Counted from the first letter of the stretch, positions 19,102-46,403 are shown. The stretch: 64,000 nucleotides of DNA from Candidatus Bathyarchaeia archaeon (GCA_049512075.1 JBEKXL010000012.1:1-64000), one strand, 5' to 3'. The notes: generated from the letters alone by a model not told the origin. Program-made: numbers and translations.

Positions 19102-19249
19102 AGCGCGCTAGGCCGTTGCTAAATTCGGACAAAAATGGATTTTAATGGGTCTGAGCTTTTTTCTTGTCAAGTGTCTCGATGTTTTGACGGAAGGATAGTT
19201 GTCGAATAAAATCCATCAAGGTCTCAATTTAGCAACAAGCTGGCGCGCC
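19102..19249. mobile_element. GCGCGC-bounded inverted-repeat element A (MITE-like)
   Basis: Ends aggccgttgctaaattcggacaaaaatggatttta and (reverse complement) agcttgttgctaaattgagaccttgatggatttta; flanks AGCGCGCT and GGCGCGCC. Confidence 0.7.
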
Positions 19250-19706
19250 AATGCCCTCAGGTCTCCCAGACGTGAGAAACCGTCCGCATGCTCGTTTGCT
19301 TCTTCAATGTTTGTCACACACACAGCAACATTACATCTGACCTTACAATTGTGGAGTAGGATGGCTGCTTTGAAGGGCAGACCAGCCTGTTTTCTCCATG
19401 ATTTGTTACAAAGCATCATTACAAATGGCGTTACAACTGAAAAGAGGGGGGGTCGACGACAAGCATCACAAAACAACATCGCATTTGACGTAGATAATGG
19501 AGGGAGCGGTCAACCTTGAAGGATACGGTGCGTTTCTGCTGAAGCAGAGCGCAAATTCATTGGCTCACGTTTTCGGATGTCAGAGCCCCAACAGCGCGCG
19601 CAGGCTCAAAGATGCGCGTGTGCCCCGAACAACCACTAATTTAATATTTAAAAGGAAGAATTCGGTTCTAGAAGATCGAATATTGATTTGAGGAAGCGCG
19701 AACACT

Positions 19707-20972
19707 ATGGAAAAAGAACCCTCTGATATTGACAAAGCCATAACCGAATTGGTCATGACCGACGATTCAGCGCAAAAGAACAAGTTGGCCAAATCCATTT
19801 TTGAAGTTGCTCACAGGGAAGGAATCTACTCGTCCAGCATCTATGAATTCTACATGGCTCGGGGCAGGGGAGAATTCAAAGGTTTCACGGTTCCCGCGAT
19901 AAACCTCCGAAGCATGACCTACGACTTGGCTCGCGCGATATTCAGAGTAGCAGAGAAAAACGGTTCCGGCGCGTTCATCTTTGAGATTGCCAGGTCGGAG
20001 ATGGGCTACACCAATCAACTGCCGACAGAATATTCAAGCGCCGTCCTAGCAGCAGCGATAAAGGAAAGCTACTCTGGCCCGGTATTCATCCAAGGCGACC
20101 ATTTTCAGGCTAACACCGCGAAATACAAGGAAAATCCAGACAAAGAAGTAGAAAGCCTAAAGGCGTTGATCGCCGATGCAATACGCTCAGGTTTCTACAA
20201 TATCGACATCGACTCTTCAACGCTCGTTGACTTATCCAAGCCCGATTTAAAAGAACAACAGCTCCTGAACTACGAAGTCTGTGCAAAACTCACCCAGTTC
20301 ATCCGTAGCATCGAGCCGAAAGGGATTACCGTTTCAGTGGGCGGAGAGATAGGCGAGATTGGGCATCAAAATTCTACGCCGGAAGACCTGCACGCGTTTA
20401 TGGCCGGCCTTGAGGAGAGGCTACCGAACGGATTAGCAGGAATAAGCAAGATTTCAGTTCAGACCGGAACGACTCACGGGGGCGTGGTCCTGCCAGACGG
20501 CTCAGTTGCCCAGGTAAACCTTGACTTTAACACTCTAAAGGTTCTCTCAGAGATTGCCCGCCGAAAATACGGGTTGGCAGGAGCCGTGCAGCACGGAGCA
20601 TCAACCCTGCCTTCTGAGGCATTCCACAAATTCGTTGAATGCGAGACCGCTGAAGTGCACCTAGCCACGGAGTTTCAGAACATGATTTACGAATCAAAAC
20701 ACTTTCCATCATATCTCAAGAAGAGAATCTACGAATGGCTAAAAATCAACGCCGCAAACGAGGCTAAACAGGGCGAAACCGAGGAACAATTCCTATACAA
20801 AACAAGGAAGAAGGCGTTAGGCCCGTTCAAGAAAGAGATCATGGGTCTGCTGCAAAAAACCCGCGACGCGATTGCAGCGGAAGTCGAGAGCAAATTTGAT
20901 TTCCTCTTCAAGCAGCTTAACGCTGTGAACAAAAGGGACTTGGTAGACAAATACACCCGCGCCGTCGTCTAG
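19707..20972 (+). CDS. Class II fructose-bisphosphate aldolase family protein
   Basis: QGDH, GEIGEIG, QTGTTHG and QHGAS. Confidence 0.88.
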   Translation: MEKEPSDIDKAITELVMTDDSAQKNKLAKSIFEVAHREGIYSSSIYEFYMARGRGEFKGFTVPAINLRSMTYDLARAIFRVAEKNGSGAFIFEIARSEMGYTNQLPTEYSSAVLAAAIKESYSGPVFIQGDHFQANTAKYKENPDKEVESLKALIADAIRSGFYNIDIDSSTLVDLSKPDLKEQQLLNYEVCAKLTQFIRSIEPKGITVSVGGEIGEIGHQNSTPEDLHAFMAGLEERLPNGLAGISKISVQTGTTHGGVVLPDGSVAQVNLDFNTLKVLSEIARRKYGLAGAVQHGASTLPSEAFHKFVECETAEVHLATEFQNMIYESKHFPSYLKKRIYEWLKINAANEAKQGETEEQFLYKTRKKALGPFKKEIMGLLQKTRDAIAAEVESKFDFLFKQLNAVNKRDLVDKYTRAVV

Positions 20973-21116
20973 CAACATCCAACGCGCACACCTTCAACAT
21001 GGTTCTTCACGGCGCAGTTTGGTCGAATTCCGAGCCTGCTCAAGTTTATCAGATAAAGCCAACGTTGCCGGGCAAATCTCTAAAAAAGCCTCCTCGGCCA
21101 CCATTAAGGTGATGGG

Positions 21117-21890
21117 TTATCTTTTTCTAAGGAGGACCATGTTTATGTTGCTCAGAGTTTCCGCCTTCTCTAAAGGCTTATCGAGGAACCATGTGCTTTC
21201 ATTTCCTTCCCACCAACCAAGAAACTCGAATCTGTTCTGAAGTTTTATGAGTGCCTTGAATTCTTGTGGAAAGATGAGCTTCAAATCTTCTTCGCTAACT
21301 AACCTCTTCGTCTGTCCCTGGTCATCGACTTCAAGCATGCCCTTTTCTGTGTAAATCTGATTCAGTATATCCTTCCAATAGGTGAATGAATAGGTCGTTT
21401 TAACCGAGACTCCCTCTCTTTCCATAATCCAGCTTTGTTCTGCATTTCTCATCCAATCGACAATCTTGTTCTGAATGAAGTATAAACCCCCTCTTTTCAA
21501 GGAGCAGGCTACAGAATCCAGATGATCGATGAACCGCTCATTAGACTCAACAACCAAAGAACCCATCATAATAAACGCAAAATCCACTTTCTTCGCGAGT
21601 CTAAAGTTGCACATATCCGCTTGTACAGTCTCGATTCTAAGCCCCTCTTCTTTTGCTTTCTCCGAAAGGTATCTCAGCATTTGAGGAGAAGAGTCCAACC
21701 CGACTGCTTCGTATCCTCTCCTTGCAATCTCTCTCAGCTGCACGCTTGGGCCACAGGCAACGTCAAGAAAACGTTTCACCTTTATCTTGCTAAACTCCTT
21801 GATTACAAGGTCGAACGTGTCAACTTGCTTTTTCACGTCAAAGAAACTGAATGCGATCTCGTAATACGCGGGATTCTTGTAGATTTCCAT
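21117..21890 (-). CDS. Class I SAM-dependent methyltransferase
   Basis: LDVACGP, GLD and ADM. Confidence 0.88.
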   Translation of the reverse strand: MEIYKNPAYYEIAFSFFDVKKQVDTFDLVIKEFSKIKVKRFLDVACGPSVQLREIARRGYEAVGLDSSPQMLRYLSEKAKEEGLRIETVQADMCNFRLAKKVDFAFIMMGSLVVESNERFIDHLDSVACSLKRGGLYFIQNKIVDWMRNAEQSWIMEREGVSVKTTYSFTYWKDILNQIYTEKGMLEVDDQGQTKRLVSEEDLKLIFPQEFKALIKLQNRFEFLGWWEGNESTWFLDKPLEKAETLSNINMVLLRKR

Positions 21891-22026
21891 GTCTAGAGCA
21901 TTGCCTCTCTTACCAGATAAGCGTACTTAGACCGAACGTGGAACACTGTGCATGTGCGCTATTCTGAACTGCGCAAATGGCGAGAAAGGTTTAAGGTCAT
22001 CAGAATCGTGTTGGTTTAGTCTAAAA

Positions 22027-22953: not shown

Positions 22954-23094
22954 AACCGCAGTCTCGCCTAGCGTGCTCTTATTCGTGTTGGCAAACACAC
23001 TCGCGCGCGCGTTAAATCAAGCTCGTCTAGGGTATTTTTCATTGAGGCGTACGTAGGAAATCATAAATCATCGCAACAACTAAGCCCTAAAAAC

Positions 23095-23718
23095 ATGAAG
23101 CCTACTTCTCAAGCAAGAATTGTTGACATAACCAAGGCTGATGAATACAGGAAATACCTCTACAGGTGTATCGTAGGCCCACCATCAAAACAGTGTAAAA
23201 AAAGAATGGAATATCTGAAAAAGGCCATTCCCAAAGGCTTTCACAAGAAACTTCTCCTCTTGAATGAGCAAGTTGTGGGGCAGATTGAATACTCACCTGC
23301 AATAGTGTCCTATTATCCGATAATTGGCGACAACGTGACAGTGTTGAATTGCATATGGGTCTTGAGGAAGGCGGGAGGCCATGACTTCGGGAAACGGCTT
23401 TTGGAGGACATGATGGCGAGCGAAAAAGAAGCCTCAGGTTTTGCAACTATAGCCTTGGAAAATCATTGGAGTCCATGGTTTAAGAAGGACCAAATGGAAA
23501 AACTGGGCTTCAAACCCCTAGACTGGATCACCGTAACGCACAAGACAAAACGCAGGCAAGCTTTCAAAATACACCTAATGTGGAGGCCAAATGCTAAGAA
23601 CGCAAAACCGCCAACCTGGAACAAGCAAAAAATGTTGGAAGGCATAATCTCCTGCACTGCGCATCCACTCTACCATCCGCGAACGTATGGACCCAAGGAA
23701 ATTCTTCAAAAACAATAA
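23095..23718 (+). CDS. GNAT-family (YoaP-like) acetyltransferase
   Basis: VGQIEYSP, LNCIWV...GHDFGKRLL. Confidence 0.75.
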   Translation: MKPTSQARIVDITKADEYRKYLYRCIVGPPSKQCKKRMEYLKKAIPKGFHKKLLLLNEQVVGQIEYSPAIVSYYPIIGDNVTVLNCIWVLRKAGGHDFGKRLLEDMMASEKEASGFATIALENHWSPWFKKDQMEKLGFKPLDWITVTHKTKRRQAFKIHLMWRPNAKNAKPPTWNKQKMLEGIISCTAHPLYHPRTYGPKEILQKQ

Positions 23719-23735
23719 GGCATAAGACCCGCAGT

Positions 23736-23955
23736 AGCGCGCATGCGCGTCCCTAAAACCGTTAAAAATGGTGTTTATTCCTTTTTCAGGTGGTTTGAGG
23801 ACGGAAAACCCCGACTTCCTGTCGGACCTGCCGGAGCTCCCGTGATCTGCCATCAACAAGGGGGGAGGATTTGTCCCTCAAACAAGCCTCAGACGCAAAC
23901 AGGCAAGAGAAAAACAAAAACCGTTTTACACAGTTCTGGAACACGCTTGTGCGCT
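23736..23955. mobile_element. GCGCGC-bounded inverted-repeat element C (MITE-like, degenerate)
   Basis: Ends tgcgcgtccctaaaaccg and (reverse complement) agcgtgttccagaactg; end regions resemble element B (aaaatgg-tttattc; ggcttgttt...caaatcct). Confidence 0.6.
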
Positions 23956-24037
23956 ACCGCACACTAGACCCAACAGATCACAGCACGCGCCGCTTGTCCA
24001 AAAGTTTATAGCTTGATAATCTCCTGCTGTAGGCAAA

Positions 24038-24934
24038 ATGATGATTCAGGTCTTAGAATTCGCAACTGAACATTTGCCAACTGTCGTCAGATTGTTAAAT
24101 GATGAATACAGGCGCTCGCATGAGTTCGTTCCGTTCGACGAAGAGAGAGTCCTGTCCCAGATTCGAAGACGGGGCATCAGGATTCTTGTGGCAGAAGAGA
24201 ACGGCTCCGTGTTGGGGCTCATCGGAACTCGTCCTGAGGAACGCTCGGAAGAGAACATCTCATGGCTCGCCGTTCGCGAAGGATCTGACCGAAGAACCGT
24301 TGAAAACATGCTCGTAAACGCGGTTGAGAGAAAGGCCCAGGGCGACACTGTAATAACAACGGTTGATGAAGGAAGCTCGAGAATCAACGATTGGATTAAC
24401 CGAGGCTATGACCTGAATCCCGGCTGGCTGCGAATGTCCGCAAGACTCGACCGCCTGAAACCAATACCCAGAATTGCCGAAGGTATCAAGCTTCGAAGCT
24501 TAAGAGTCGGAGAGGAAGGAAAACTCGTCGAAGCAATGAACACTGGGTTCGGTTGGCGAAGACTAGAACTTGGAGCTGTTGAAAGTTGGAAGTTTGAGGA
24601 TCCGCCGTTCAGCGAGGACTGGGTTCAAGTCGCTGAGACTGGCGAAAGGATTGTGTCCGCCGTTGTAGCGAAGCCGGACACGGATTACAATAAGTATCTG
24701 CATCTCAAGCGGGGTTATCTTGGGCCAGCCACCACTCTCCCCGAATTTCGAAACAAGCATCTGGCGTCAGCACTCACGGCTCAAGCCATGAATTTCCTGT
24801 TCGAAAAAGGAATGAACTCAGTCAGACTGGGGACTTCAGAAGAGAACATTTCCTCCATTACTTTGTTGCGCATGTTAGGCTTTCAGGTGGACATTGTCAG
24901 AAAAATCATGCGCAAGAAGCTGAAGAACGGCTGA
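24038..24934 (+). CDS. Tandem GNAT acetyltransferase
   Basis: TLPEFRNKHLASAL and LGF motifs. Confidence 0.85.
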   Translation: MMIQVLEFATEHLPTVVRLLNDEYRRSHEFVPFDEERVLSQIRRRGIRILVAEENGSVLGLIGTRPEERSEENISWLAVREGSDRRTVENMLVNAVERKAQGDTVITTVDEGSSRINDWINRGYDLNPGWLRMSARLDRLKPIPRIAEGIKLRSLRVGEEGKLVEAMNTGFGWRRLELGAVESWKFEDPPFSEDWVQVAETGERIVSAVVAKPDTDYNKYLHLKRGYLGPATTLPEFRNKHLASALTAQAMNFLFEKGMNSVRLGTSEENISSITLLRMLGFQVDIVRKIMRKKLKNG

Positions 24935-25207
24935 GCCAGAGGCAAGTCAGCGCGCGCTGTGTTTGTGGTATTTGCACGTTTGCATGGAAGACGGGTTGCA
25001 TGCTTGGAATCTTCGTATCCGTGCTCGAAACCATCGCTTCAATTAGACTTGAACAATAATAATCATGTTGGCGAAGGGTCGAGCGAAAAAGGTGCGGATT
25101 CTTGCCTTCTGAGGAAGAGACAGAGGTGTGGTGTCAGAGAAGTCTAGGGGGCCTTGAGTTTTTTCGAGCTCCAGCAGCAGTCGTCCTCGTACGAGTCTAC
25201 TGTTTTA

Positions 25208-25317
25208 AACCAGGCGCCATCAGATGGAATCCCAATGCCGACTTAGACGGCAACGGTGTCGTGGGCCTATCAGACTTAGATATACTGGCACAGCACTACA
25301 GACGGTACTGGCCGTAA
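25208..25317 (+). pseudogene. Orphan dockerin C-terminal fragment
   Basis: KPGAIRWNPNADLDGNGVVGLSDLDILAQHY followed by a T-rich terminator; no parent ORF. Confidence 0.75.
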
Positions 25318-25492
25318 CCCTTTTTTCTTTTTTAGTGCGCGCATATCATTGTAGCGGCTAATCCTCTTCTCCTCACATTCTCTGAGACGTAGATTTCTCC
25401 AATTCCTTTTGGAATGATTTTTCTTCCATCAAGTCGTTAGGGCGTGGGCTACCTGAAAAACATATTACAACAGGTGGACACTACTCTACAAC

Positions 25493-26290
25493 ATGAGAGA
25501 CTGGATAAACAAGCTGTTCATTGACCGGTCCGATCTTTTCTTGAAGATTATGAACCAGAGATGGGCCAAGACCGAGCAGCTTGTCAACGGAATCGTGAAA
25601 GTGCTTGACAATTTCGGGATCAAGTCGGGCAAAGTGCTCGACTTATGCTGTGGAAACGGTCGAACTTCCATCTACATGGCCAAGAAGGGCTTCAGATCTG
25701 TCGGAGTCGACATATCAAAAGCCTTTCTAGACGACGCCAGAAGAAAAGCGAGAGAGCACAGGGTTTCAGGCCTTGTCACTTTTCTGGAGGGCGATGTGAG
25801 AAAATTGAAAGAAGTCGTTGGACCTAATTCAAAGCCTTTCAATGTAGTCGTCAACGTCTGGACCTCTATTGGGTTCTATCGGGAAAAAGATGATCTAAAC
25901 ATTTTCAGACAGGCTCGGCAGCTTTCGAGGGAAGGCGCAATCTTGTTCATAGCTGAAACCGCCCATACTGAATATCTTTCGCTCAAGTTTACTCCCAATT
26001 CTTACGCCGAGCTGGACGACATTGTAATGTTGGAGAACAGGAAGTATGACCCAATAACAGCGCAAGCCAATACTTCCTGGACCTTCTACAAAAGACGCGG
26101 CGAAAACTTGGAATTCATAGACAAAGCCGAAATCATGCATCACGTCTACAGCCTAAGTGAGCTGTGCTCTCTTCTAAAAAGAGCCGGCTGGGAAACCCTG
26201 GCATCCTATGGGAATCTGTCAACACTACAACCAATGAGCCCCCTAACGAGCATGAACATGGTTGCAAAAGCCGTTGATTCAGATACCTAA
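25493..26290 (+). CDS. Class I SAM-dependent methyltransferase
   Basis: VLDLCCGNGR, GVDIS and WTSIGF. Confidence 0.9.
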   Translation: MRDWINKLFIDRSDLFLKIMNQRWAKTEQLVNGIVKVLDNFGIKSGKVLDLCCGNGRTSIYMAKKGFRSVGVDISKAFLDDARRKAREHRVSGLVTFLEGDVRKLKEVVGPNSKPFNVVVNVWTSIGFYREKDDLNIFRQARQLSREGAILFIAETAHTEYLSLKFTPNSYAELDDIVMLENRKYDPITAQANTSWTFYKRRGENLEFIDKAEIMHHVYSLSELCSLLKRAGWETLASYGNLSTLQPMSPLTSMNMVAKAVDSDT

Positions 26291-26366
26291 CGCGCATACA
26301 CGCAGGACTAATATCCGAAAAAAAGACCGTGGGCGCTGGCAAAAAGCGCGCGAGTAAGAAAGGCGG

Positions 26367-27338
26367 TTGGAAATGTTCTTCGACGATATGGCCTGTTCCC
26401 TGAAATTGAGGCTCAAAGCGCTTCCTCCGTATGATTTTGCGCTCACAGTCCACGGACCCGCCGGGTGGCCGCTGTCAACACCCTTCGAAATATTCGAGAA
26501 AGGCGTGCTATGGACTGCCATGAGGACACCTACTGGAAAACTGTTCGGGCTGAAATTGAGGTCTGTTGGAACAGTCGAGAAACCAGAGATATTTTGCAAG
26601 ATATACTCCCACCGGGAGCTCGGGACAAGCGAAAGAAGAGAGCTGTTGAAAACTGTAGCATGGATGCTGAATCTTGGAGAGGACATTAGAGAATTCTATG
26701 CACTTGCCGAGCGTGACACACTTGTCAAAGTCTTGGTGAAAGATCTATATGGAATGAGAAACACGAAACAGCCTGACATCTTCCAGCGTCTCATCTTGGC
26801 AGTAACCTTGCAGATGGCTCCCATAACGAGAAGCAATCAGATGATGAACTCGCTGATAAACGAGTAAGGCGACAGAGTCAGCTTCGATGGAAAGGACATC
26901 TCGTACTGGCCCTCCGCGGAAAGGATAGCAAATGTTGAAGTCGAAGAGCTTGAGCAGAAGTGCAAGCTTGGTTACAGGGCAAAATTTCTCAAAGACATAG
27001 CGGAAACTCTACGAGCGGGTTTTCCATCGCTTCAGGAACTTGAAGAAGTGTCGGCTCAGGAGGCAAAAGCCAAGCTCATGGAGCTGAACGGGATAGGAGA
27101 GTACTCCACAGACATTGTACTGCCTCATTCTGGGTTCGCCCTAGACGTCTGGAGCGCAAAAATATTCAGCGCGCTCCTTCTTAGAAGAAAGGCAGAATCG
27201 CCACGCACCCTCATTCCGAAGCTCAAGAAGATGGCGGAGGACCGATGGGGCCGGTGGAGAGGCTATGTCTTCATCTACGTGCTGCACGATCTGGGCAATT
27301 TGTCACGTAGGTTCAATCTAAACCTGACCCAGATGTGA
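26367..27338 (+). pseudogene. AlkA/OGG-like HhH-GPD DNA glycosylase with internal TAA at 26865-26867
   Basis: The frame continues past the stop: GDRVSFDG...WPS...KLGYRAK...GIGEYS...DVW. Confidence 0.85.
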
Positions 27339-27457
27339 ACACGCCCTCAATCTACGAGGTTTGTCTTCTCTAAGCATGATAAATTACTTAACGGCGGCTG
27401 AGTAATATACTTGAGGTTTCACAGAGACACTTGGAACCAGCACTGGAGAGATGTTCG

Positions 27458-28231: not shown

Positions 28232-28311
28232 CGACTTCCGTTCAGCGCGTTCACTGATTGAACGGAATTCTTAAGAAGTCTAAAACTCAAGAGTCTGCTG
28301 GGTTGGCCTTC

Positions 28312-30736: not shown

Positions 30737-30995
30737 AATATAAGATTTGCAATGTCTATTTCAGCTTTCAACTTTTTGTCGCCGTCTATTTCAAGTCCTG
30801 AATGATCCTGCTGGGACAAGGCGCCTTACTGTTTAAGGCATAGTTTTCTTGAATGAGAAAAAACAGAGGATGTTTATTGTTTAGGCTGGTGTGGGCAAGA
30901 GCGCGCGCTCGTGTCAAGGTCACGCGTGCGGGCAAGTGTTGATTGCGCATGCCAGGATGGAACGAAGAAAGGTTAGGGCTGGCTCATTCGATTCT

Positions 30996-36611: not shown

Positions 36612-36647
36612 CAAGAAAATCTGTATGAATAGAAAAGGAGTGATTTT

Positions 36648-37358: not shown

Positions 37359-38100
37359 TAAACCTGAAAAGTTAATCGATAAAAAAGGCCTGAGACTGGA
37401 CGGGAGAAAGCTCGATGAGTTAAGGCCGGTGAAGCTTCAAGTAGGCGTGATCTCAAACGCAGACGGTTCAGCATACATTGAACATGGAAAAAACAAGATT
37501 CTGGTCGGTGTGTACGGGCCGAGGGAAGTGCATCCCAAGCACTTGGCCCTTCCGGATCGAGCGGTTGTTAAGTGCCGTTACCACATGGCACCGTTCTCAG
37601 TTCAGGAGCGCAAGTCACCTGCGCCGTCAAGAAGAGAAATCGAACTCTCGAAAGTGATAAGGGAATCGCTTGAACCCGCCATTTTCATGGAATATTACCC
37701 GCGCACGATGATAGACATATTCATTGAAGTGTTACAGGCCGATGGTGGAACAAGATGCGCGAGCATCACAGCAGCCGCTCTGGCTTTGGCAGACTCGGGC
37801 ATTCCGATGCGAGACCTAGTCGTCGCATGCGCGGCGGGCAAAGTGGAGGACAAAATCGTGCTGGACTTAATGGACACCGAAGACAAGGTGGGTTCGGCTG
37901 ACGTTCCCGTGGCTCTGATGCCCAACCTGAACGCCGTCACGTTGCTGCAGATGGATGGAACACTTTCAACCGACGAGTTCGAAAGCGCGGTGAACTTGGC
38001 TCTTGAAGGGTGCAAACAAATCTATGCACTTCAGAAAGAAGCGTTAAGAATCAAGTACGTGAACGTTAAAGAAGAAAACAAGGAGGAGGCTGAAGAATAA
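37351..38100 (+). CDS. rrp41: Exosome exonuclease Rrp41
   Basis: RLDGR, ADGSA and QADGGTR. Confidence 0.96.
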
Positions 38101-38891
38101 TGGCAGCAGTAATAACCAAAGTGAAACAGAAGCAGATTGCGCAGTTGATAGACAACGGAAAACGCTTGGACGGCAGAGAATTGACAGAATATCGCGAAAT
38201 AAAAATCGAACAGGGCATAATTGAAAAAGCTGAGGGGTCAGCAAGGGTGCTTCTTGGAAAAACCGAGGTCGTCGTGGGAGTAAAAATCGAGACGGGAGAG
38301 CCGTTCTCGGATACGCCGAACGAGGGCGTCTTAACGGTAAACGTAGAGCTTGTACCGCTAGCTTCGCCGGGCTTTGAACCAGGACCCCCCGACGAGAGTT
38401 CGATAGAGCTCGCGAGAATAGTTGACAGGGGAATTAGAGAGTCCAAAGCTATCGATACGGGGAAACTCTGCGTCGTACCCGGAAAGAAGGTGTTCGTTGT
38501 CTTCGTTGATGTCTACGTGCTGAATCATGATGGAAATTTGATAGACGCCTCAGCACTGGCCGCAATGGCTGCACTGCTTAACGCGAAAATGGGCAAGTAC
38601 GAAGTCGAGGACGGAGAAGTGAAGATGAAATCAGGCTACGAGCCGCTTCCACTAAGGAAACACCCCATAACGGTCACCTGCGCCAAAATAAGCGACAAAC
38701 TCGTCGTCGACCCCTGGCTGGAAGAAGAGCAAGTTATGGATGCCCGAATCTCAATAGCATTCGACGACGACGAAAACATATGTGCCATACAAAAAGGCGG
38801 AAGCGGGTACTTTGAACCAAAACAAGTATTCGAAGCGGCAAGAGTAGCTAAAGAAAAATCTAGGGAACTGCGAAAGAAACTGAACTGGTGA
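38100..38891 (+). CDS. rrp42: Exosome subunit Rrp42
   Basis: KAEGSA, EPGPP, RGIRES and DGNLIDA. Confidence 0.96.
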   Translation: MAAVITKVKQKQIAQLIDNGKRLDGRELTEYREIKIEQGIIEKAEGSARVLLGKTEVVVGVKIETGEPFSDTPNEGVLTVNVELVPLASPGFEPGPPDESSIELARIVDRGIRESKAIDTGKLCVVPGKKVFVVFVDVYVLNHDGNLIDASALAAMAALLNAKMGKYEVEDGEVKMKSGYEPLPLRKHPITVTCAKISDKLVVDPWLEEEQVMDARISIAFDDDENICAIQKGGSGYFEPKQVFEAARVAKEKSRELRKKLNW

Positions 38892-38898
38892 AAACGCG

Positions 38899-39201
38899 AT
38901 GGGGAACAGAACCAAAAAAGTCGGGCCCACTCGCGGACTGGGTCCCCGCTACGGTTCGACAGTCAGAAAACGCTACATGAAGGTAATGATAGAGATGAAG
39001 AAACCCCACAAATGTCCACAATGCGGTTTCTCAAGAGTAAAAAGAGAAAGCGTCGGAATCTGGAAATGCAGAAAATGCGGTTTCACATACACTGGCGGAG
39101 CCTACACGCCCATTACAAAGCTCGGAATAGTGGCAAAACGCTCAGCCAAGGGCACACCGGCAGAAGAAACATTACAGACAGCGGAAGAAGAAAGCGCCTA
39201 G
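38899..39201 (+). CDS. rpl37ae: Ribosomal protein L37ae (eL43)
   Basis: GPRYG, CPQC, GIWKCRKC and GGAY. Confidence 0.95.
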   Translation: MGNRTKKVGPTRGLGPRYGSTVRKRYMKVMIEMKKPHKCPQCGFSRVKRESVGIWKCRKCGFTYTGGAYTPITKLGIVAKRSAKGTPAEETLQTAEEESA

Positions 39202-39269
39202 GCCTCCCCTCTCTTGCCAAATTCAAACGCGGAACCTGAGCTTTCGAACGGTTTTCTGGAAATGCCTGA

Positions 39270-39548
39270 ATGAAAGCGAGAGCAACTGTGCGCCTGAAGT
39301 TACCCTCAGAGAAAAAGTTGCAGACGATTCTCAGATCCTTAGAACCAGAGGTTAACAGTCCAACCGGGCGTGCGTGGGCAAGTTTAGCGAAGAAAGGCGA
39401 TTACCTGACTTTGAAGATTGAAGCCAAAGACACGGTTGCGTTGCGTGCCGCACTAAATGCCTATCTAAGATGGATAAATTCGATTCTAAACGTGTTTCAG
39501 ACACTTGAAAGAGAAGAAGGGCGTTCAGTCTTGAAATCAGAGATTTGA
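39270..39548 (+). CDS. pcc1: KEOPS subunit Pcc1
   Basis: SLEPE and DTVALRAALNAYLRW. Confidence 0.9.
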   Translation: MKARATVRLKLPSEKKLQTILRSLEPEVNSPTGRAWASLAKKGDYLTLKIEAKDTVALRAALNAYLRWINSILNVFQTLEREEGRSVLKSEI

Positions 39549-39782
39549 CTCAGATTCCGGCGAGAGTTCTCCTCCAACTATCATGCTTTCATTCCTTGAG
39601 AGAACCTCGATTTTTCCAGCTGAACACGCCGCTAGTCATGTATCCTAATGAAACAACTAGCGACCTGCTATTTTCAAAGCAGAAATAACCAGCAACAGAG
39701 AAGTGAGGCGCAACGGCTTGAGTTGAGAGCCTCCGGACAATTTGAGAAAATGTTAAAATGTCGGATGAATTGCCGATTAATT

Positions 39783-39946
39783 TGCGCGCATGCCTGTTCC
39801 TAAATTCATTCGCGAGCTGGTTTTTGTTATAGGCTCGCTTGGTTCGTGGATGACCGTGTGACTATTGATGCGAGAATTATCGTCTGTAGGACATGGACCA
39901 ACTCGTCACGCCCAAAAAAGGGAATTTAGGAACACGCTAGCGCGCT
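39783..39946. mobile_element. GCGCGC-bounded inverted-repeat element D (MITE-like)
   Basis: gcgcgc-a-tgcctgttcctaaattc ... (reverse complement) gcgcgc-t-agcgtgttcctaaattc. Confidence 0.75.
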
Positions 39947-39950
39947 ACTT

Positions 39951-39990
39951 GTCTGGGGGTAAAGTCTACTCCCAAACCCAAACCAAATCC
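39951..39990. repeat. GGGGTAAAGT repeat, inverted relative to copies at 41434-41456 and 43762-43800
   Basis: gtctgggggtaaagtctactccc vs reverse complement gtttgggggtaaagttttatccc (19/23). Confidence 0.6.
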
Positions 39991-40228
39991 AACCTGACGC
40001 CGTGCCTTATGGAAGTAAAGTGCGTTATTGAGAGGCAATATATGCGGTTCAGCACATAGTTCTTGATCTCTGCAAAAGAGGCGATATTGCGGAATTCAAG
40101 GCATAATAGGGTAGGTATATAGGTAGTATCGGAATCGAGTATACGTTCTGCAGCGTTAACTTATAAAGGCTCGTTTGAGCAACTAGAAGCATACATCAGA
40201 TATGAAATGGGCAGGGTAGTCATATGGC

Positions 40229-41428
40229 ATGAAGACCGACTCAAGCTCTGACGGGTCTCGGCGCAACAGGCTGTTTCTGCCAGCATTGGCTGCTGCCAGC
40301 TTTGCTTCAGGCCCGATTACGGTCTTGGGAGCCCTTCTCCTAATTGACATAGGCAACACGTTTGGTACGTCAGTTAGTATTACAGGTCAGATTTACACGT
40401 TATATTCTATTGCTGCAGTCATCTTTGCGTTGCTGACAGGGGTCTTAAGTATTAAATTCAAGCATAGGTCGTTGCTCCTCGTAGGCTTGTTTTTGATGGC
40501 GATCTCGGCTGCAGGTTGTTTCTTAGCTCTGGATTTCGTCACGTTGCTTGCATTCTATTCTTTGAGTGGAGCTGGATACGCCATTGTCAACCCTATGGCG
40601 TTCACCTTAGTTGGAGAGCATTTTCCTTTGGAAAAGAGGGCAAATGCGATTGGGTTGATTGTTGCGGGCGGGGCGCTGGTGTACGTCATAGGGGCTCCGG
40701 TGATTGCGGTGATGTCAGGCTACAGAGGCTGGCGTTTTCCCTTTCTGGGTTTTGTCCTGCCGATTCTGCTTATAGGTCTGCTATTGGCTTTTCTCGGTCT
40801 TCCGTCTACTTCGAACAAACGTCAAGTGCCATCAGAGGCGAAAGCTAATCCGAGTCCTAAGGCGTTTTTCCTGAACAAATCTGTTGCTGCTTGCCTGATT
40901 GGCGACACCCTTCGTGCCGCAGCTTTTGTTGCAATCATGCTTTACGCAACGTCATTCTTCAGACAGCGATTCTTGGTTCCTACAGATTCTGCCTCCCTTA
41001 TACTGTTGGGTGGAGCATTGTCCTACGTCGTAGGCAGCTTGACCACTAGTCGGTTCGTAAATAGGATGGGAAGAAAGTCTTCAGCTGTTCTTACTGCCTT
41101 GTTATCAGGAACATTCACCGTTTCGTTTGTTTTCGTCCCCAACGTCTGGATTTCTTTAATACTAATGTTGATTGCCAGTTGGTTCTTCGGCATGGTTGCT
41201 TCATCAGCTAACAGTCTGATTCTTGAGCAGATTCCAGAGCTGAAGGGTACTTTGATGTCGATTGATACTGCGGTACTGAATGCTGGTTCAGCCTTTGGAA
41301 CTACTGCAGGAGGAATGGCTTTACTATATTTTGGCTATGAAGGTCTGGGCAGTGTTCTGGGAACTGTAGGCATTGTTGCTGCATTGGTTTTCTATCTACT
41401 CGCAAAAGATCCAACCAAGCCGCCATAG
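40229..41428 (+). CDS. MFS transporter
   Basis: About 12 TM helices; PLEKRANAIG, GWR and NRMGRK motifs. Confidence 0.9.
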   Translation: MKTDSSSDGSRRNRLFLPALAAASFASGPITVLGALLLIDIGNTFGTSVSITGQIYTLYSIAAVIFALLTGVLSIKFKHRSLLLVGLFLMAISAAGCFLALDFVTLLAFYSLSGAGYAIVNPMAFTLVGEHFPLEKRANAIGLIVAGGALVYVIGAPVIAVMSGYRGWRFPFLGFVLPILLIGLLLAFLGLPSTSNKRQVPSEAKANPSPKAFFLNKSVAACLIGDTLRAAAFVAIMLYATSFFRQRFLVPTDSASLILLGGALSYVVGSLTTSRFVNRMGRKSSAVLTALLSGTFTVSFVFVPNVWISLILMLIASWFFGMVASSANSLILEQIPELKGTLMSIDTAVLNAGSAFGTTAGGMALLYFGYEGLGSVLGTVGIVAALVFYLLAKDPTKPP

Positions 41429-41542
41429 TTTACGGGATAAAACTTTACCCCCAAACCCAAACATATTTTTATTACGACGACGCGACGACGAACGCATAGT
41501 TTACGGACGCATAGTTTATCGTAAAATGATACAGACCGATTT

Positions 41543-41704
41543 TCATTTACATATTAATGGTTTTGTGGTTTCTACTGTCAATTTTCCATTGGGCTTTTCC
41601 TTCATTGCATTTTTGTAGAAGCCACATTCCAGATGATTTCTGTCATTGCAGTTGATTCCTGTTATTTTGCACCTGTCAAATAAGGGACATTTAGGCTGAG
41701 TCAT
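41543..41704 (-). CDS. Small Cys-rich hypothetical protein (53 aa)
   Basis: MTQPKCPLFDRCKITGINCNDRNHLECGFY...; purine-rich upstream sequence. Confidence 0.45.
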   Translation of the reverse strand: MTQPKCPLFDRCKITGINCNDRNHLECGFYKNAMKEKPNGKLTVETTKPLICK

Positions 41705-41862
41705 TTGTTCTTCCTTTTCTTAAAGGTCTTAACTAACCGTTCTTTTTCAAAATCATAAATAAAACCCTTGTTAATCCAGTCTCCCGTTTCCCAATCATAA
41801 TTATATTTGTCTCTGGCACGCGCTAGAACTCAGAAAACTATCACGCAGTTAAAAAAGGGGAA

Positions 41863-42170
41863 CTATTTAAGTTCTACAACTAAGAGGTCTACGTCAGTTT
41901 TCCCTGGGTTCTCGGCTTCGTGAGATTGGGCTTTAAGGAAGATTGCCTGACCAGTCTTCAGGTCTAATACCTCTGTTTTCCTGAAGATGTCAGTTTTAGT
42001 TTGCCACCTTTGAGAACATATACGACATGGTCTGGATGGCTGTGCATTACTGTTTTGTCGTTTGGTTTGAACAGAACCTGAAGTACACGCACGCGGTCGT
42101 TTTCCATTATGGACTTAGAGACGTTTTCCGCCTTCGTTTCCTCATTCCTTCTTAGACTCTCCGCTTGCAT
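41863..42170 (-). pseudogene. Cupin protein, frameshifted at an A run (about 41976-41979)
   Basis: ENDRVRVL...MHSHPDHVVYVL, continuing in another frame as EVLDLKTGQAIF...HEAEN...LVVELK. Confidence 0.8.
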
Positions 42171-42673
42171 ATTTAAGAATATGTGACCGTAACCACACAG
42201 CAAAAACGCGTTAAAATTCTGTAAGCTGGAAAAGCCACGACAGATAAGTTTACAGTATCGACTTGACAGAACCCCTATAAGAAACAATGGACATAGATAG
42301 ACTCGGTAAGAAGATGCCAAAGAAAAGAGCACACGCAGGACTCAAGAAGAAGAAACATAAAGAAGCATAATCAACGCGCACGCGCCAATAGAATAAGAAC
42401 AATATCGCCTCCAATACCCGACTTGTTATAGGGTGAACCATCACCCGAAAAGAGACCAGAACCTAAAATGAAATGAGGGAAGATGGTAGCTTTACTCACT
42501 AGGGAGAAAAGGGGAGAAGAGAGAAAAACTTACCACCATTTCCCTCAGTCAATTTCGACTATACACATGTTGGTTACTTTTAAGTTTTTCTTCGATTTTT
42601 TGAATCGTGCGCGCTAGCCCAGATGGAAAAAGTTTAATTAAATGCAATAGTCTAAACTCCCCCACAGACAAAT

Positions 42674-43195
42674 ATGAACAGCGTCGTTATTCTCTGTGGA
42701 GGAAATAGTTGTGGAAAAACAACTACTCTGAAAGGCTTTTTCAAAGTGAAAGGTAACCACAGTCCAGAATCCTACATTGAAAGGAAACTTGATGGTAGGA
42801 GAATATGTGCTGTCAGTTTTAGTTCTCCTCAAGAACAGGAACCGTTCTGCGAGGTCAGACTTGTCAACGATAACATCAAGAATCGAATAATAGAGTGCGA
42901 GAAGAATACTAATGGCGAACCATACATTTTGATTATCCCTTTCACGATGAGCGGGAGTAGAAAGAAAAGAAAGAAAATCAACGAGGACTGCATTCTCAAA
43001 CCCATTGAAAAATTGAGGGAAAAGTTCAAAGTCTTTGTTATTTACCTAAGGAAAACCAATGCTCGGAACCTCGAAGATAAAGATGCTTTGATGAAACGGA
43101 TTGCATTGAAAATGGTCGAAACCACAAAAGATGATTATGATAAGTCAGCAGAGTTAGAGAAGTACCTTAAGGGAGTAGTCATAGAATCACATTGA
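42674..43195 (+). CDS. Small P-loop NTPase-like hypothetical protein
   Basis: GGNSCGKTT Walker A; AT-rich. Confidence 0.6.
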   Translation: MNSVVILCGGNSCGKTTTLKGFFKVKGNHSPESYIERKLDGRRICAVSFSSPQEQEPFCEVRLVNDNIKNRIIECEKNTNGEPYILIIPFTMSGSRKKRKKINEDCILKPIEKLREKFKVFVIYLRKTNARNLEDKDALMKRIALKMVETTKDDYDKSAELEKYLKGVVIESH

Positions 43196-44933: not shown

Positions 44934-45913
44934 TCAACCTTTTGGACGCGGTTGACGCCAAGTTTGTTGTTCTGCTGTGCCACCATAATGCCGATCCAGA
45001 CGCAATCTGTTCGGCGTATGCCCTTTCAAGCTTGCTAAGACAGTCACGACCACAAATGATTGTTGAGGTTGGGGCTGCACATGGGATAAGTCGACTTTCA
45101 AAGCATCTCCTCGAACATTTGCCAGTAGAAGTGAAAACACAACCGAGTGTAGAGAAAGCACAGGCGATAGTGTTGCTCGACACGAACACTGTCCAGCAGT
45201 TGGACGATTTGGCTGATAGAGTTATGAATTCGAAGGCTCCACTCATCGTTGTTGATCATCACATCGTTCACCCCGAAACCAAGCAGCTGGCGAAGATTTC
45301 TATAACCGATGAGGCGGCATCATCCACGTGCGAGATCGTGTACGACTTCTACAGGCAAACGGGAATAAAACCTGGCGGAAACGAGGCCAAGGCCCTGTTC
45401 TTAGGCATAGCTTTTGACACGCGGCATTTTATCTTAGCCAACTCGTCCACGTTGAAAAACATCGTGGGACTCATCGATGCCGGCGTGAACGCCCAAGAGG
45501 CACTCTCACTGCTCTCGTTGCCCATGGATTTCTCCGAGCGCGTGGCGAGGCTTAAAGCTTCTAGGAGAACCAAACTCTTCAAGGTCGGAGAATGGATAAT
45601 CGCTTTGTCACACGTCAGTGCCTACGAGGCTTCAGCCGCGCGGGCGATGGTAGAGCTGGGGGCCCACGTTGCTGCCGTAGCCGGGGAGAGAGATGGAAAC
45701 TTGGAAATTAGCCTGCGCAGTTCAATTGACTTCTACAAGAAAACGGATGTTCACCTCGGAAAAGACGTGGCGAAGCCGTTGGGCGAATACCTTCACGGTA
45801 TGGGCGGAGGACACGCCACAGCAGCGGGAGTCAACGGGAAAGGCGACATAGAAATCGGGCTCAAACGTTGCCTGTGGCTTTTGAAGGAAAAACTGGGTAA
45901 CCATAATTATTAG
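44915..45913 (+). CDS. DHH family phosphoesterase (NrnA-like)
   Basis: HHNADPDA, DHH, DT, SLRS and GGGHATAAG. Confidence 0.92.
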   Translation: MSFTEIINLLDAVDAKFVVLLCHHNADPDAICSAYALSSLLRQSRPQMIVEVGAAHGISRLSKHLLEHLPVEVKTQPSVEKAQAIVLLDTNTVQQLDDLADRVMNSKAPLIVVDHHIVHPETKQLAKISITDEAASSTCEIVYDFYRQTGIKPGGNEAKALFLGIAFDTRHFILANSSTLKNIVGLIDAGVNAQEALSLLSLPMDFSERVARLKASRRTKLFKVGEWIIALSHVSAYEASAARAMVELGAHVAAVAGERDGNLEISLRSSIDFYKKTDVHLGKDVAKPLGEYLHGMGGGHATAAGVNGKGDIEIGLKRCLWLLKEKLGNHNY

Positions 45914-45967
45914 GCCGCAAGTAACTGGTACGCGCGCGAAAAGGCTTTCCTGAGAGTCTTACAAAGC

Positions 45968-46094
45968 GGTGCCGACGGGAAAGTACCTGGCCCCGCCCAC
46001 CAATGGCGGGCCCTTTCGGGCAATCGCCGCGCGGCCTTGGTTTTCCTCAGATTTTCTCCTCGCCCCGGGCCGCGTTTTGGCGAAGCGGAAGGGC
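45968..46094. ncRNA. Candidate GC-rich structured RNA (long hairpin)
   Basis: Nested pairings GCCCTTTCG/CGGAAGGGC, TCGCC/GGCGA and GCGCGGCC/GGCCGCGT. Confidence 0.4.
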
Positions 46095-46098
46095 TTAT

Positions 46099-46403
46099 AG
46101 CGCGCTGCCTTGTCCCGAAATTGGTGTAAAGTGGTCATAATTCTTGTTTTCGGGTTTAGGGGCAGTTTTGAGGCACATATGTGTTTTTAGCCCTTCTGTG
46201 TGCCTTGACTTTCAAGATGGGCTAAGTGTAGCCTCAACGGCTTATGGGAATAACTACTTCCATCCGGCTTTGATGGAACCCCCTGATTTGCCGGCTTTCA
46301 GCGCGGTCAGGATTTGCCTATGAAACAAGCCCAAATCAAGCTGCAATAGACAAAAGAAGAATAAAAACCATTTTAGACCATTTTAGGGACAAGCCAGCGC
46401 GCT
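46099..46403. mobile_element. GCGCGC-bounded inverted-repeat element B (MITE-like)
   Basis: 31/37 inverted identity: tagcgcgctgccttgtcccgaaattggtgtaaagtgg vs cagcgcgctggcttgtccctaaaatggtctaaaatgg; AGCGCGCT on both sides. Confidence 0.78.

What the first reader, a model, noticed from the sequence alone, without database searches (positions are those of the whole stretch)
19102..46403. Family of GCGCGC-capped inverted-repeat elements with conserved ends and variable interiors
Seen: four non-coding elements, A 19102-19249, C 23736-23955, D 39783-39946 and B 46099-46403 (132-289 bp between the caps). Their eight ends, read inward, fit roughly GCGCGC-N-NGCNTGTYCCTAAAWT (aggccgttgctaaatt, agcttgttgctaaatt, tgcctgttcctaaatt, agcgtgttcctaaatt, gccttgtcccgaaatt, ggcttgtccctaaaat, tgcgcgtccctaaaac, agcgtgttccagaact); one cap is degenerate (GCGCAC). 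B and C share further subterminal similarity. Possible lone ends occur at about 16405, 23990 and 30812. No transposase with these ends is in the window. Inference: either MITEs of an IS family that targets and duplicates NGCGCGCN (ends loosely like IS5/IS903 GGCTTTGTTG), or hairpin recombination sites in which GCGCGC is part of the repeat, as element C suggests. Their excision could leave the lone (CG)n runs.
Basis: partly seen in the sequence, partly recalled or inferred. Interest (0 to 1): 0.85.

Follow-up and report, generated by a model that had tools for sequence, protein, structure and literature searches.

The report
GCGCGC-capped archaeal transposon relics (MITEs)
The four elements are small, non-autonomous transposons of an uncultivated archaeon, moved by an IS5-like transposase encoded elsewhere in the genome and always sitting between two GCGCGC motifs; an ordinary kind of mobile DNA with an unusual, strictly conserved junction.

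Summary
All four elements exist: A 19103-19248, C 23737-23954, D 39784-39945, B 46100-46402. The end pattern hits the window 7 times against 0.14 expected.

They belong to a large family. In the window's 2.7-Mb genome, a cap-free profile of the inverted repeat finds 110 ends, and 95 sit directly behind an exact GCGCGC.

Outside the window there are ~1.1-kb insertion sequences with the same ends. They encode a DDE transposase (PF01609 + DUF772, YREK motif), below every NCBIfam IS cut-off. The family occurs in all 4 congeners searched and in many Bathyarchaeia.
- D is a deletion derivative of such an IS.
- A, B and C derive from a ~480-bp capped element that carries only a winged-helix gene.

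Two points remain open:
- Whether GCGCGC is a duplicated target or the true terminus. A 6-bp or NGCGCGCN duplication is not supported.
- Why about 1,400 mostly intergenic (GC)3-5 runs exist, some lying at strain-specific indel junctions.

This is a new variant of a known kind, of moderate interest.

The parts
19103..19248 (.). Element A: 146-bp MITE with GTTGC-type ends (GCGCGC-TAGGCCGTTGCTAAATT / GCGCGC-CAGCTTGTTGCTAAATT)
   Evidence: Sequence. Arms 45 nt, 76% complementary. Termini are 92-96% identical to those of the 1122-bp IS at G000 C15:7518-8639. The interior is 74% identical over 97 nt to the decayed winged-helix element at C8:32260-32722. It is the only full-length copy in the genome.
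23737..23954 (.). Element C: 218-bp old, decayed MITE. Left end GCGCGC-ATGCGCGTCCCTAAAAC, right end GCGCAC-AAGCGTGTTCCAGAACT read inward
   Evidence: Sequence. It is 75% identical over ~200 nt to C1:203137-203505 and has weak similarity to the winged-helix element. It is absent at the orthologous site of congener G002, which reads GCGCGC-CT-GTGCGC there.
39784..39945 (.). Element D: 162-bp young MITE with GTTCC-type ends (GCGCGC-ATGCCTGTTCCTAAATT / GCGCGC-TAGCGTGTTCCTAAATT)
   Evidence: Sequence. Six copies covering at least 80% of its length, 95.7-99.4% identical, lie in the genome, and 6 near-full copies lie at other places in G002. Its two ends match the two ends of the 1077-bp GTTCC-type IS at G002:C1:34476-35552.
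46100..46402 (.). Element B: 303-bp MITE with GTCCC-type ends (GCGCGC-TGCCTTGTCCCGAAATT / GCGCGC-TGGCTTGTCCCTAAAAT); a decayed winged-helix-gene element
   Evidence: Sequence. Arms 52 nt, 83% complementary. It is 76% identical over 205 nt to the ORF region of the winged-helix element at C35:464-944, and 92% over 78 nt to the end of C2:161410-161891. Its termini are 100% identical over 21-23 nt to IS C32:7469-8577. Seven copies at 69-85% identity.
23987..24010 (+). Decayed lone end of GTCCC type with a degenerate cap (GCGCC-GCTTGTCCAAAAGT)
   Evidence: Read directly. It was not found by the pattern or regex searches.
30812..30826 (-). Decayed lone right-end fragment (GGGACAAGGCGCC)
   Evidence: Read directly. 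It resembles ...GGGACAAGGCA-GCGCGC of the GTCCC-type right ends.
24950..24957 (.). (GC)4 run at a strain-variable junction
   Evidence: Contigs of runs X7 and X8 join 24957 to 25385 with GC between. They therefore carry (GC)5 and lack 427 bp.

Best explanation
The four elements are non-autonomous transposable elements (MITEs) of one insertion-sequence family of Bathyarchaeia. The autonomous members are ~1.08-1.3-kb IS. They encode a single ~335-aa DDE transposase of the IS4/IS5/IS1182 type. Their ~17-20-bp terminal inverted repeats fall into three core types: GTCCC, GTTGC and GTTCC. D is an internal-deletion derivative of a GTTCC-type IS. A, B and C are decayed derivatives of a second, ~480-bp element. 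That element has the same termini but carries only a ~125-aa winged-helix protein with four conserved C-terminal cysteines. None of the four encodes a transposase, so they must be moved in trans; this step is inferred. Every end of every member abuts GCGCGC. The most likely reading is that the transposase inserts into a short GC-alternating palindrome, preferably TA-GCGCGC-TA. Such palindromes abound in this genome's intergenic DNA. Insertion would duplicate an inner, even-length part of the palindrome (4 bp or less), so that each junction again reads GCGCGC. This is inferred, at about 55%, and the periodic palindrome hides the exact cut. Shown: the family, its transposase, the cap association, its spread across genomes, and the derivation of the four elements. 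Inferred: trans-mobilisation, the target reading, and any role of the winged-helix protein.
For: The ends are real and non-random: 7 window hits against 0.14 expected.

Whole genome:
- A regex allowing up to 3 substitutions gives 180 hits and 48 pairs.
- A cap-free 24-nt IR profile gives 110 hits at E<=1, 95 with exact GCGCGC directly upstream, and 135 hits at E<=10, 107 with the cap.
- A core-anchored regex gives the cap in 83 of 110 hits.

Full-length IS lie at C39:6540-7652, C32:7469-8577, C15:7518-8639 and C77.
- Their ORFs hit PF01609 (46-86 bits) and PF05598 above cut-off.
- The alignment has invariant D131, nearly invariant D218, and an invariant Y271-x2-R274-x3-E278-x6-K285.

Spread:
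- The end pattern hits all 4 congeners searched (26, 3, 31 and 28 hits; reversed control 0).
- It hits 31 of 151 sampled class genomes, with G000 highest at 107.
- The transposase is found in 37 of those 151, and 1943 database proteins match at E<=1e-10.
- Of 80 relatives' loci, 70 show a pair of IR cores. 41 have exact caps at both ends, 11 have one exact and one single-substitution cap, and 1 has two single-substitution caps.
- Transposases only 37-46% identical, in another family (G111, G105), have the same caps with diverged repeats.

The winged-helix element sits inside capped repeats in G135, G111, G124 and G148; in G093 it has the same repeats with degenerate caps.

For the target reading:
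- Caps are present at orthologous sites that lack the element.
- Two sites are occupied by different family members in G000 and G002.
- The outer flank shows a TA preference (T 57 of 110, A 59 of 110), and free flanks of lone (GC)3-5 runs share it (17-31% against a 4.3% genome TA frequency).
- There is no repeat outside the caps.
- Single-substitution cap variants sit at positions 1-4 (9, 2, 3, 1) and never at 5-6, and none is mirrored at the other end. By my hand chi-square against uniform, p is about 3e-4.
Against: No clean empty site with a single GCGCGC was found.
- Two systematic flank tests against 245 kb and then 645 kb of the closest genome gave 0 usable pairs.
- Contigs of 4 metagenome runs showed no empty allele of C or D.
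- The element-free sites that were found are untidy. G002 at site C has two caps 2 nt apart and lacks 18 nt of flank. A metagenome contig at site D reads GGTCGC-AT.

Adjacent elements sharing or abutting caps are almost absent: 0 among 370 profile-detected ends, plus one weak case. If any GCGCGC were a target, more would be expected.

(GC)n stretches also occur where the compared genome has none, which a strict target model does not explain:
- +GCGCGCGC and +AGCGAGCGCGC in G002;
- GCGCGCG at a 2265-bp deletion junction in run X4.

The GTTCC-type transposase that should move D is seen in G000 only as fragments. Transposition itself was not observed.
Confidence: 0.8

Rival explanations
1. GCGCGC is the true terminus of the elements, carried along with them, and not a duplicated target. 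Insertion makes no visible duplication, as reported for IS1272 of the IS1182 family, which replaces inverted-repeat targets. Lone (GC)3-5 runs are what excision leaves behind: self-complementary end remnants annealed in register.
For: - The cap is invariant while the adjacent 5-6 nt of the repeat diverge between clades, as in bipartite IS ends.
- Inner cap positions never vary in 15 single-substitution variants.
- No duplication lies outside the caps.
- Adjacent elements are almost absent.
- (GC)n stretches occur where the compared genome has none, and at a deletion junction.
- Run lengths stop sharply at 10 nt: (GC)3 451, (GC)4 250, (GC)5 90, (GC)6 2.
- The genome encodes Ku (140.7 bits).
- IS1272 inserts into inverted repeats without duplications (PMC5678879; abstract and section 22 read).
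Against: - Element-free sites keep whole caps, in one case both caps plus 2 nt. That is the classical pattern of a flanking duplication plus a few element bases.
- The same sites are reused by different members, which fits a sequence-specific target.
- In this sample 9 of the 18 genomes richest in GCGCGCGC have no transposase match. G080 has 472 TAGCGCGC against 49 for the reversed control, with no repeats beside the runs.
- Cap pairs 1-3 nt apart are no commoner than wider spacings.
Confidence: 0.3
2. The (GC)n runs are made by a host process independent of this IS, for example a repair scar or a functional intergenic signal, and the IS merely homes to them.
For: - Runs are abundant in class genomes with no transposase match.
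- GCGCGC is 10 times denser outside long ORFs (2.23 against 0.226 per kb), whereas five of seven other G+C-rich hexamer palindromes are not denser outside ORFs and GCATGC and GCTAGC are 1.5-1.8 times denser.
- Runs are enriched just after stop codons: 186 within 40 nt of a stop against 60 within 40 nt of a start, on crude ORF calls.
- 23 of 31 runs inside well-aligned G000/G002 blocks are conserved.
Against: - Run abundance is patchy even within the window's own family: G000 646 against 0-28 in 19 of its 20 sampled relatives (95 in G094). That pattern looks more like a mobile-element trait.
- The transposase is commoner in run-rich genomes: 9 of 18 against 28 of 133 (relatives are not independent).
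- Ku presence tracks runs only weakly: 7 of 18 against 27 of 133.
Confidence: 0.35
3. The elements are hairpin recombination sites (integron-attC-like, or REP/RAYT-like) or structured RNA genes, not transposons.
For: Each element can fold as a long imperfect hairpin (arms). The caps are palindromic.
Against: - The ends are shared with IS that encode DDE transposases.
- Interiors are unrelated between subfamilies and carry decayed ORF remnants.
- There is no Rfam match in the window at gathering thresholds except 2 tRNAs, and none in three family loci at E<=0.01.
- Recombinases were not searched for.
Confidence: 0.03

Closest known systems
IS5 family and IS1182 family insertion sequences (DDE_Tnp_1 transposases with the DUF772 N-terminal domain)
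   Same: They share the domain pair PF05598 + PF01609, the YREK signature, a single transposase ORF and short terminal inverted repeats with a ...TGTYCC..AAA-like core. The best NCBIfam partial matches are IS1182 and IS5_4.
   Different: All NCBIfam IS equivalog scores fall below cut-off: IS1182 77-143 bits against 270, IS5_4 50-104 against 140. The element and its protein are smaller than IS1182 members (size recalled). A constant GCGCGC at both junctions is not a feature I know for either family (recalled), and literature searches gave nothing. ISfinder could not be queried.
Prokaryotic MITEs (for example Neisseria Correia elements and Sulfolobus SM MITEs; recalled)
   Same: They are short (146-303 bp), have terminal inverted repeats shared with an autonomous IS, lack a transposase, occur in many copies, lie between genes, and include a young homogeneous subfamily (D).
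   Different: Three of the four derive not from the transposase-bearing IS but from a separate ~480-bp element that carries a winged-helix gene.
IS1272 (IS1182 family) of Staphylococcus aureus, PMC5678879 (abstract and section 22 read)
   Same: It is a related transposase type. New insertions went into inverted-repeat (palindromic) targets downstream of genes, without target duplications.
   Different: IS1272's targets were 22-30-bp inverted repeats of varied sequence that were replaced. Here the junction is one fixed hexamer that persists on both sides.
PIF/Harbinger transposons of eukaryotes (recalled)
   Same: They have an IS5-related DDE transposase plus a separate small DNA-binding protein, a short palindromic target, and MITE derivatives with subterminal repeats.
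   Different: Here the DNA-binding gene sits on its own element, not beside the transposase. It is a winged helix, not Myb-like.
IS that home to host intergenic palindromes (REP/BIME-targeting IS1397 and ISKpn1; recalled)
   Same: Insertion is confined to an abundant intergenic palindromic motif, which spares genes.
   Different: The motif here is only a 6-10-nt GC-alternating run, and its origin (host or element) is unresolved.

Membership tests
MITE (non-autonomous derivative of an IS) | Short element with terminal inverted repeats and no transposase gene | tested here: met
   The elements are 146-303 bp. Arms are 29-52 nt for A, D and B; C's repeat is visible by eye only. There is no transposase match on the window's contig.
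MITE (non-autonomous derivative of an IS) | Termini shared with an autonomous IS in the same or a related genome | tested here: met
   B matches IS C32/C39, A matches IS C15, and D matches the IS at G002:C1:34476-35552.
MITE (non-autonomous derivative of an IS) | Multiple dispersed copies with presence/absence differences between genomes | tested here: met
   D has 6 copies at 95.7-99.4% identity and B has 7. C is absent at the orthologous G002 site. G002's D-type copies lie at other places.
MITE (non-autonomous derivative of an IS) | Target-site duplication flanking each copy | tested here: inconclusive
   There is no repeat outside the caps. The caps may contain a 2-4-bp duplication, but the periodic palindrome hides it.
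IS5 family | DDE_Tnp_1 transposase with a DDE triad and the YREK signature | tested here: met
   PF01609 scores 46-86 bits against a cut-off of 23. Y271, R274, E278 and K285 are invariant, D131 is invariant and D218 nearly invariant.
IS5 family | Score at or above the NCBIfam IS5 equivalog cut-offs | tested here: not met
   IS5_4 scores 50-104 bits against 140. IS5_1, IS5_2 and IS5_3 are also below cut-off.
IS1182 family | Score at or above the NCBIfam IS1182 equivalog cut-off, with a full-length match | tested here: not met
   Scores are 77-143 bits against 270, as two partial stretches of a 488-position model.
IS1182 family | Insertion into palindromic or inverted-repeat targets with absent or variable duplication | tested here: inconclusive
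   A palindromic junction is always present. Neither the mode of insertion nor the duplication length could be read.
PIF/Harbinger-like two-component system | A second, DNA-binding protein is required for transposition | not testable with these tools
   A winged-helix protein on a sister element is conserved in 12 of 151 genomes. Its fold is confirmed (pLDDT 70; PadR/ArsR/MarR matches at E 3e-4).
Hairpin recombination sites (attC / REP-RAYT) | Association with an integrase or HUH enzyme rather than a DDE transposase | not tested
   No recombinase search was made. Cognate DDE transposases were found.

The most novel reading that the evidence does not exclude
This archaeon runs a eukaryote-style cut-and-paste cycle. 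The IS5-like elements excise, the break is rejoined (the genome has Ku), and the two self-complementary GCGCGC caps anneal in register to leave (GC)3-5 scars. On this reading, the ~1,400 mostly intergenic GC-alternating runs, with their sharp 10-nt ceiling, record past insertions and mark the junctions of strain-specific indels. The separately mobile winged-helix protein would be a Harbinger-like second component, or a hyperparasite, that binds the subterminal AAAATGG repeats of the small elements.
Probability: 0.2. Interest if true: 0.8.

Novelty: new variant of a known kind. Interest (0 to 1): 0.5.

Why it matters
Mobile DNA of Bathyarchaeia, an abundant uncultivated archaeal class, is almost undescribed. 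My literature searches found nothing on it.

This family shows three unusual features:
- a DDE transposon whose every junction is one fixed hexamer palindrome, conserved across transposases down to 37% identity;
- a widespread mobile element that carries nothing but a small winged-helix gene, and that is the parent of most of the MITEs here;
- a genome in which GC-alternating runs are ten times denser outside long ORFs than inside them, and sit at junctions of strain-level insertions and deletions.

If the runs prove to be excision or repair scars, they would be a readable record of transposon traffic and end-joining in an archaeon. If they are a host signal, the family is a compact example of safe-site homing. 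In practice, these repeats break assemblies: many ends lie at contig ends. They should be masked when annotating such MAGs.

Tried and rejected
- Flank-based search for empty or filled sites between G000 and G002: 0 usable pairs in 245 kb and in 645 kb. The intergenic DNA next to the elements is not conserved between the two species.
- Metagenome contigs of 4 runs laid on 23001-43000: no contig bridges C or D without the element, and assemblies break at D.
- One pattern scan of metagenome contigs for an empty D site gave a single, diverged contig with an ambiguous junction.
- Outgroup polarity of the +GCGCGCGC indel: G004's spacer is too diverged, and it has a GCGCGC ~75 nt away. G001 and G003 gave no usable match.
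- TA as a 2-bp duplication: rejected, because the two flanks are independent.
- Excess of cap-N(1-3)-cap footprints: none. There are 3-13 per spacing across 1-30 nt.
- Ku as the explanation of run abundance: only a weak association.
- Cap-length bookkeeping (6, 8 or 10 nt) cannot separate the models. All give the same sums (my reasoning).
- Rfam: nothing beyond 2 tRNAs in the window, and nothing in three family loci.
- PDB sequence search with the transposase profile: 0 matches.
- The two membrane ORFs inside or beside capped segments (C2:331-1242 and C4:42351-43070) are unrelated to each other and have no Pfam match. They may be host genes caught between ends rather than passengers.

Full report
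**Observation**

The four elements are in the sequence as described. Each is bounded by GCGCGC. One cap of C reads GCGCAC inward.
- The pattern GCGCGCNNNNNNGTYSCNRAAW (up to 1 mismatch) hits the window 7 times. Dinucleotide-preserving shuffles give 0.14 on average, and 0 of 100 shuffles reach 7.
- Inverted arms extend well beyond the first 23 nt in A (45 nt), B (52 nt) and D (29 nt). C is too decayed for the repeat finder.
- All four lie between long ORFs.
- Of the suggested lone ends, 23987-24010 and 30812-30826 look like decayed ends. The one near 16405 is weak.

**The family in the genome**

The window is contig C12 of an 86-contig, 2.73-Mb assembly with 47.5% G+C.
- A regex for cap plus repeat, allowing up to 3 substitutions, gives 180 hits that form 48 pairs. 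Many unpaired hits lie at contig ends.
- To test the cap independently, I built a profile of the 24 nt behind the cap from 80 ends and searched without the cap. At E<=1 there are 110 hits, 95 with an exact GCGCGC immediately upstream. At E<=10 the figures are 135 and 107.
- A core-anchored regex gives the cap in 83 of 110 hits, and shows T at -8 (57 of 110) and A at -7 (59 of 110) outside the cap.

**Autonomous partners**

Capped elements of 1109-1122 bp at C39, C32 and C15, and the whole 1121-bp contig C77, carry one long ORF.
- The ORFs hit PF01609 (DDE_Tnp_1) and PF05598 (DUF772) above cut-off.
- In NCBIfam the best matches are IS1182 (77-143 bits, cut-off 270) and IS5_4 (50-104 bits, cut-off 140). 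No IS equivalog is reached.
- A 14-sequence alignment has invariant D131, nearly invariant D218, and an invariant Y-x2-R-x3-E-x6-K. From my own knowledge, that is the YREK signature of IS4/IS5-type transposases.
- No solved structure matches by sequence.
- tblastn finds no copy on the window's contig.
- A third IS type, with GTTCC ends, is seen whole in the congener G002 (C1:34476-35552, 1077 bp, frameshifted ORF). In G000 it survives only as fragments.

**A second parent element**

Capped elements of ~480 bp (C35:464-944, C2:161410-161891, and decayed C8:32260-32722) carry a 127-147-aa ORF.
- Its Pfam hits are sub-threshold, all to winged-helix families.
- An AlphaFold model (pLDDT 70) matches PadR/ArsR/MarR-type winged-helix regulators (Foldseek E 3e-4, TM 0.6).
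- Nine homologues share four invariant C-terminal cysteines.
- Homologues occur in 12 of 151 sampled class genomes.
- In G135, G111, G124 and G148 they lie between GCGCGC caps, inverted repeats and subterminal AAAATGG-type repeats. In G093 the repeats are the same but the caps are degenerate.

**What the four window elements are**
- D matches both ends of the GTTCC-type IS (70 nt and 30 nt). It has six copies at 95.7-99.4% identity, so it is a young deletion derivative.
- B aligns over 205 nt (76%) with the winged-helix ORF region and shares its termini with IS C32.
- C is an older relative, 75% identical to C1:203137.
- A has the termini of IS C15 and an interior related to the decayed winged-helix element.

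**Distribution**
- The end pattern hits all 4 congeners searched (26, 3, 31 and 28 hits; reversed control 0).
- It hits 31 of 151 class genomes, with G000 by far the richest at 107.
- The transposase matches in 37 of those 151.
- 1943 proteins in the large protein database match at E<=1e-10. Those that carry a name are called only 'transposase' or 'hypothetical'.
- The scan of species genomes kept the 80 best of 138 confirmed loci. Nearly all of their record titles read Candidatus Bathyarchaeia or Bathyarchaeota.
- In 70 of these 80 loci two repeat cores lie 950-1400 bp apart. 41 have exact GCGCGC at both ends, 11 have one exact and one single-substitution cap, 1 has two variants, and 17 are mis-paired or truncated.
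- Transposases only 37-46% identical, in another family (G111 with 16 copies, G105 with 4), have diverged repeats (AGGGTTGTCCCGATATT) but the same caps and TA outside them.

**What the cap is**

There is no direct repeat outside the caps. Among 40 paired elements TA flanks both sides in 12, one side in 19 and neither in 9. Independent flanks at p of about 0.54 would give exactly this, so TA is a preference and not a duplication.

A 6-bp duplication predicts that a variant at cap position 1 on one side is mirrored at position 6 on the other. Among 15 single-substitution caps the positions are 9, 2, 3, 1, 0, 0, and none is mirrored. So the outermost base behaves like flank and the inner bases like a constrained part of the end.

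Every even-length window of an alternating GC string is its own reverse complement. A duplication of 2 or 4 bp inside the cap therefore cannot be told from none.

*Evidence that the motif belongs to the site:*
- At C4:14726 and C4:43139 the congener lacks the element but has the cap at the same flank.
- At site D, G002 has a different family member's end at the same cap.
- At C12:67458, G000 has the cap plus 7 nt of a repeat where G002 has a whole MITE.
- At site C, G002 reads GCGCGC-CT-GTGCGC. That is both caps with 2 nt between them, the shape of a classical excision footprint.

*Evidence against a simple target model:*
- Neighbouring elements that share or abut a cap are almost absent (0 among 370 ends).
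- One metagenome contig at site D reads TTT-GGTCGC-AT-TACTTG.
- GC-alternating stretches occur where the compared genome has none (next section).

I therefore favour insertion into a GC-alternating palindrome with a short internal duplication, at about 55%. The rival, that the cap is the true terminus with IS1272-like palindrome targeting, stays at about 30%. For IS1272 I read the abstract and section 22 of PMC5678879.

**The (GC)n background**
- GCGCGC occurs 1873 times against 492 expected from base composition.
- It is 10 times denser outside long ORFs (2.23 against 0.226 per kb). Of seven other G+C-rich palindromic hexamers, five are not denser there, and GCATGC and GCTAGC are 1.5-1.8 times denser.
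- There are 1445 alternating runs of at least 6 nt. Lengths are 6: 669, 7: 195, 8: 284, 9: 186, 10: 105, 11 or more: 6.
- They lie preferentially just after stop codons (crude ORF calls).
- Free flanks of (GC)3, (GC)4 and (GC)5 are TA in 17%, 27% and 31% of cases, against a genome TA frequency of 4.3%.
- Only about a tenth of the runs adjoin a recognisable end.

*Strain comparisons:*
- A contig of run X4 joins 25003 to 27269 with GCGCGCG between, although neither border has such a run in G000. Part of the missing segment is present in G002, so the X4 state is most simply a deletion.
- Contigs of X7 and X8 replace 427 bp after the (GC)4 at 24950-24957 by GC.
- In G000/G002 alignments, (GC)4-5 runs sit at several replaced segments.
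- Two indels consist only of GC-alternating sequence. Their polarity could not be fixed.

*Class sample:*
- G000 has the most GCGCGCGC (646).
- Of the 18 genomes with 90 or more, 9 have a transposase match. Of the other 133 genomes, 28 do.
- The family-f35 genome G080 has 601 GCGCGCGC and 472 TAGCGCGC (reversed control 49). It has no transposase match and no repeats beside the runs.
- G000 encodes Ku, but Ku tracks run abundance only weakly.

The origin of the runs therefore stays open. They could be a host signal, a repair scar or a transposon footprint.

**Comparison with what is known**

The elements work like IS5/IS1182-type IS and their MITEs.
- Membership of the MITE class is met on three of four features. 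The duplication is unreadable.
- Membership of the curated IS5 or IS1182 families is not met by NCBIfam scores.

The fixed hexamer junction and the winged-helix-only element are not features I know, and none of my searches found them. The searches were:
- Bathyarchaeota + insertion sequence + transposase: 4 papers, none on this subject;
- IS1182 + target site duplication + palindromic: 3 papers;
- MITE + archaea + GCGCGC;
- GCGCGC + insertion sequence + target site: 3 papers, none relevant by title or abstract;
- excision footprint + archaea + insertion sequence: 1 review.

ISfinder could not be consulted, so a curated entry may exist.

It agrees in kind, and I did not test it.

**Verdict**

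This is a new variant of a known kind, with two open and testable oddities: the nature of the cap and the origin of the (GC)n runs. Interest 0.5.

Noticed in passing
window 25004-27268: A 6.6-kb contig of metagenome run X4 (depth 42) lacks these 2265 bp and has GCGCGCG in their place. Neither border carries a GC run in the window, and part of the segment is present in congener G002.
   Followed up: partly
window 24958-25384: Contigs of runs X7 and X8 lack these 427 bp and read (GC)5 where the window has (GC)4. The missing piece holds another GCGCGC at 25337-25342.
   Followed up: partly
G000 C16:6054-6590 (L216): There is a Ku homologue (PF02735, 140.7 bits, over cut-off). Ku is found in 34 of 151 sampled class genomes. 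From my own knowledge, end-joining genes are uncommon in archaea.
   Followed up: partly
G000 C14:40592-40883 and C19:673-964 (L159): A 292-bp insert with its own short inverted ends sits inside two GTTCC-type MITEs, splitting the subterminal AAAATG|GT repeat. The two copies are 99% identical. There is no Rfam match.
   Followed up: partly
G000 C2:331-1242 (L004) and C4:42351-43070 (L160): Capped ends of GTCCC type enclose or adjoin ORFs of 233 and 239 aa that look membrane-spanning, have no Pfam match and are unrelated to each other. They could be passenger genes or host genes caught between solo ends.
   Followed up: partly
window 13215-13320: A tRNA match of 106 nt with a low score (36 bits) covers model positions 5-66, probably an intron-containing archaeal tRNA.
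   Followed up: no
G002 contig C1 vs G000 (C14:3494, C30:7968, C30:13482, C18:34891, C18:20616): There are five insertions of 0.7-5.6 kb, each present in one genome only, with overlaps of 3, 8, 9, 10 and 5 bp at the joint and no GC run. These look like other mobile elements with ordinary target duplications.
   Followed up: no
window 43782 vs G002:C2:3512-3673 (L026): G002 has a D-type MITE exactly where homology with the window begins. The window has neither the MITE nor a GCGCGC there, and the left flanks are unrelated, so this is a rearrangement breakpoint at a MITE.
   Followed up: partly
L215 about 333-525: The metagenome contig that lacks element D carries an unrelated insert of ~190 nt a few bases further on, flanked by TGGGG on both sides.
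   Followed up: no
G000 C12:67013-67080 (beyond the window): G000 has 68 bp inside an otherwise 98-99% identical block that G002 lacks (L032 1123/1124).
   Followed up: no
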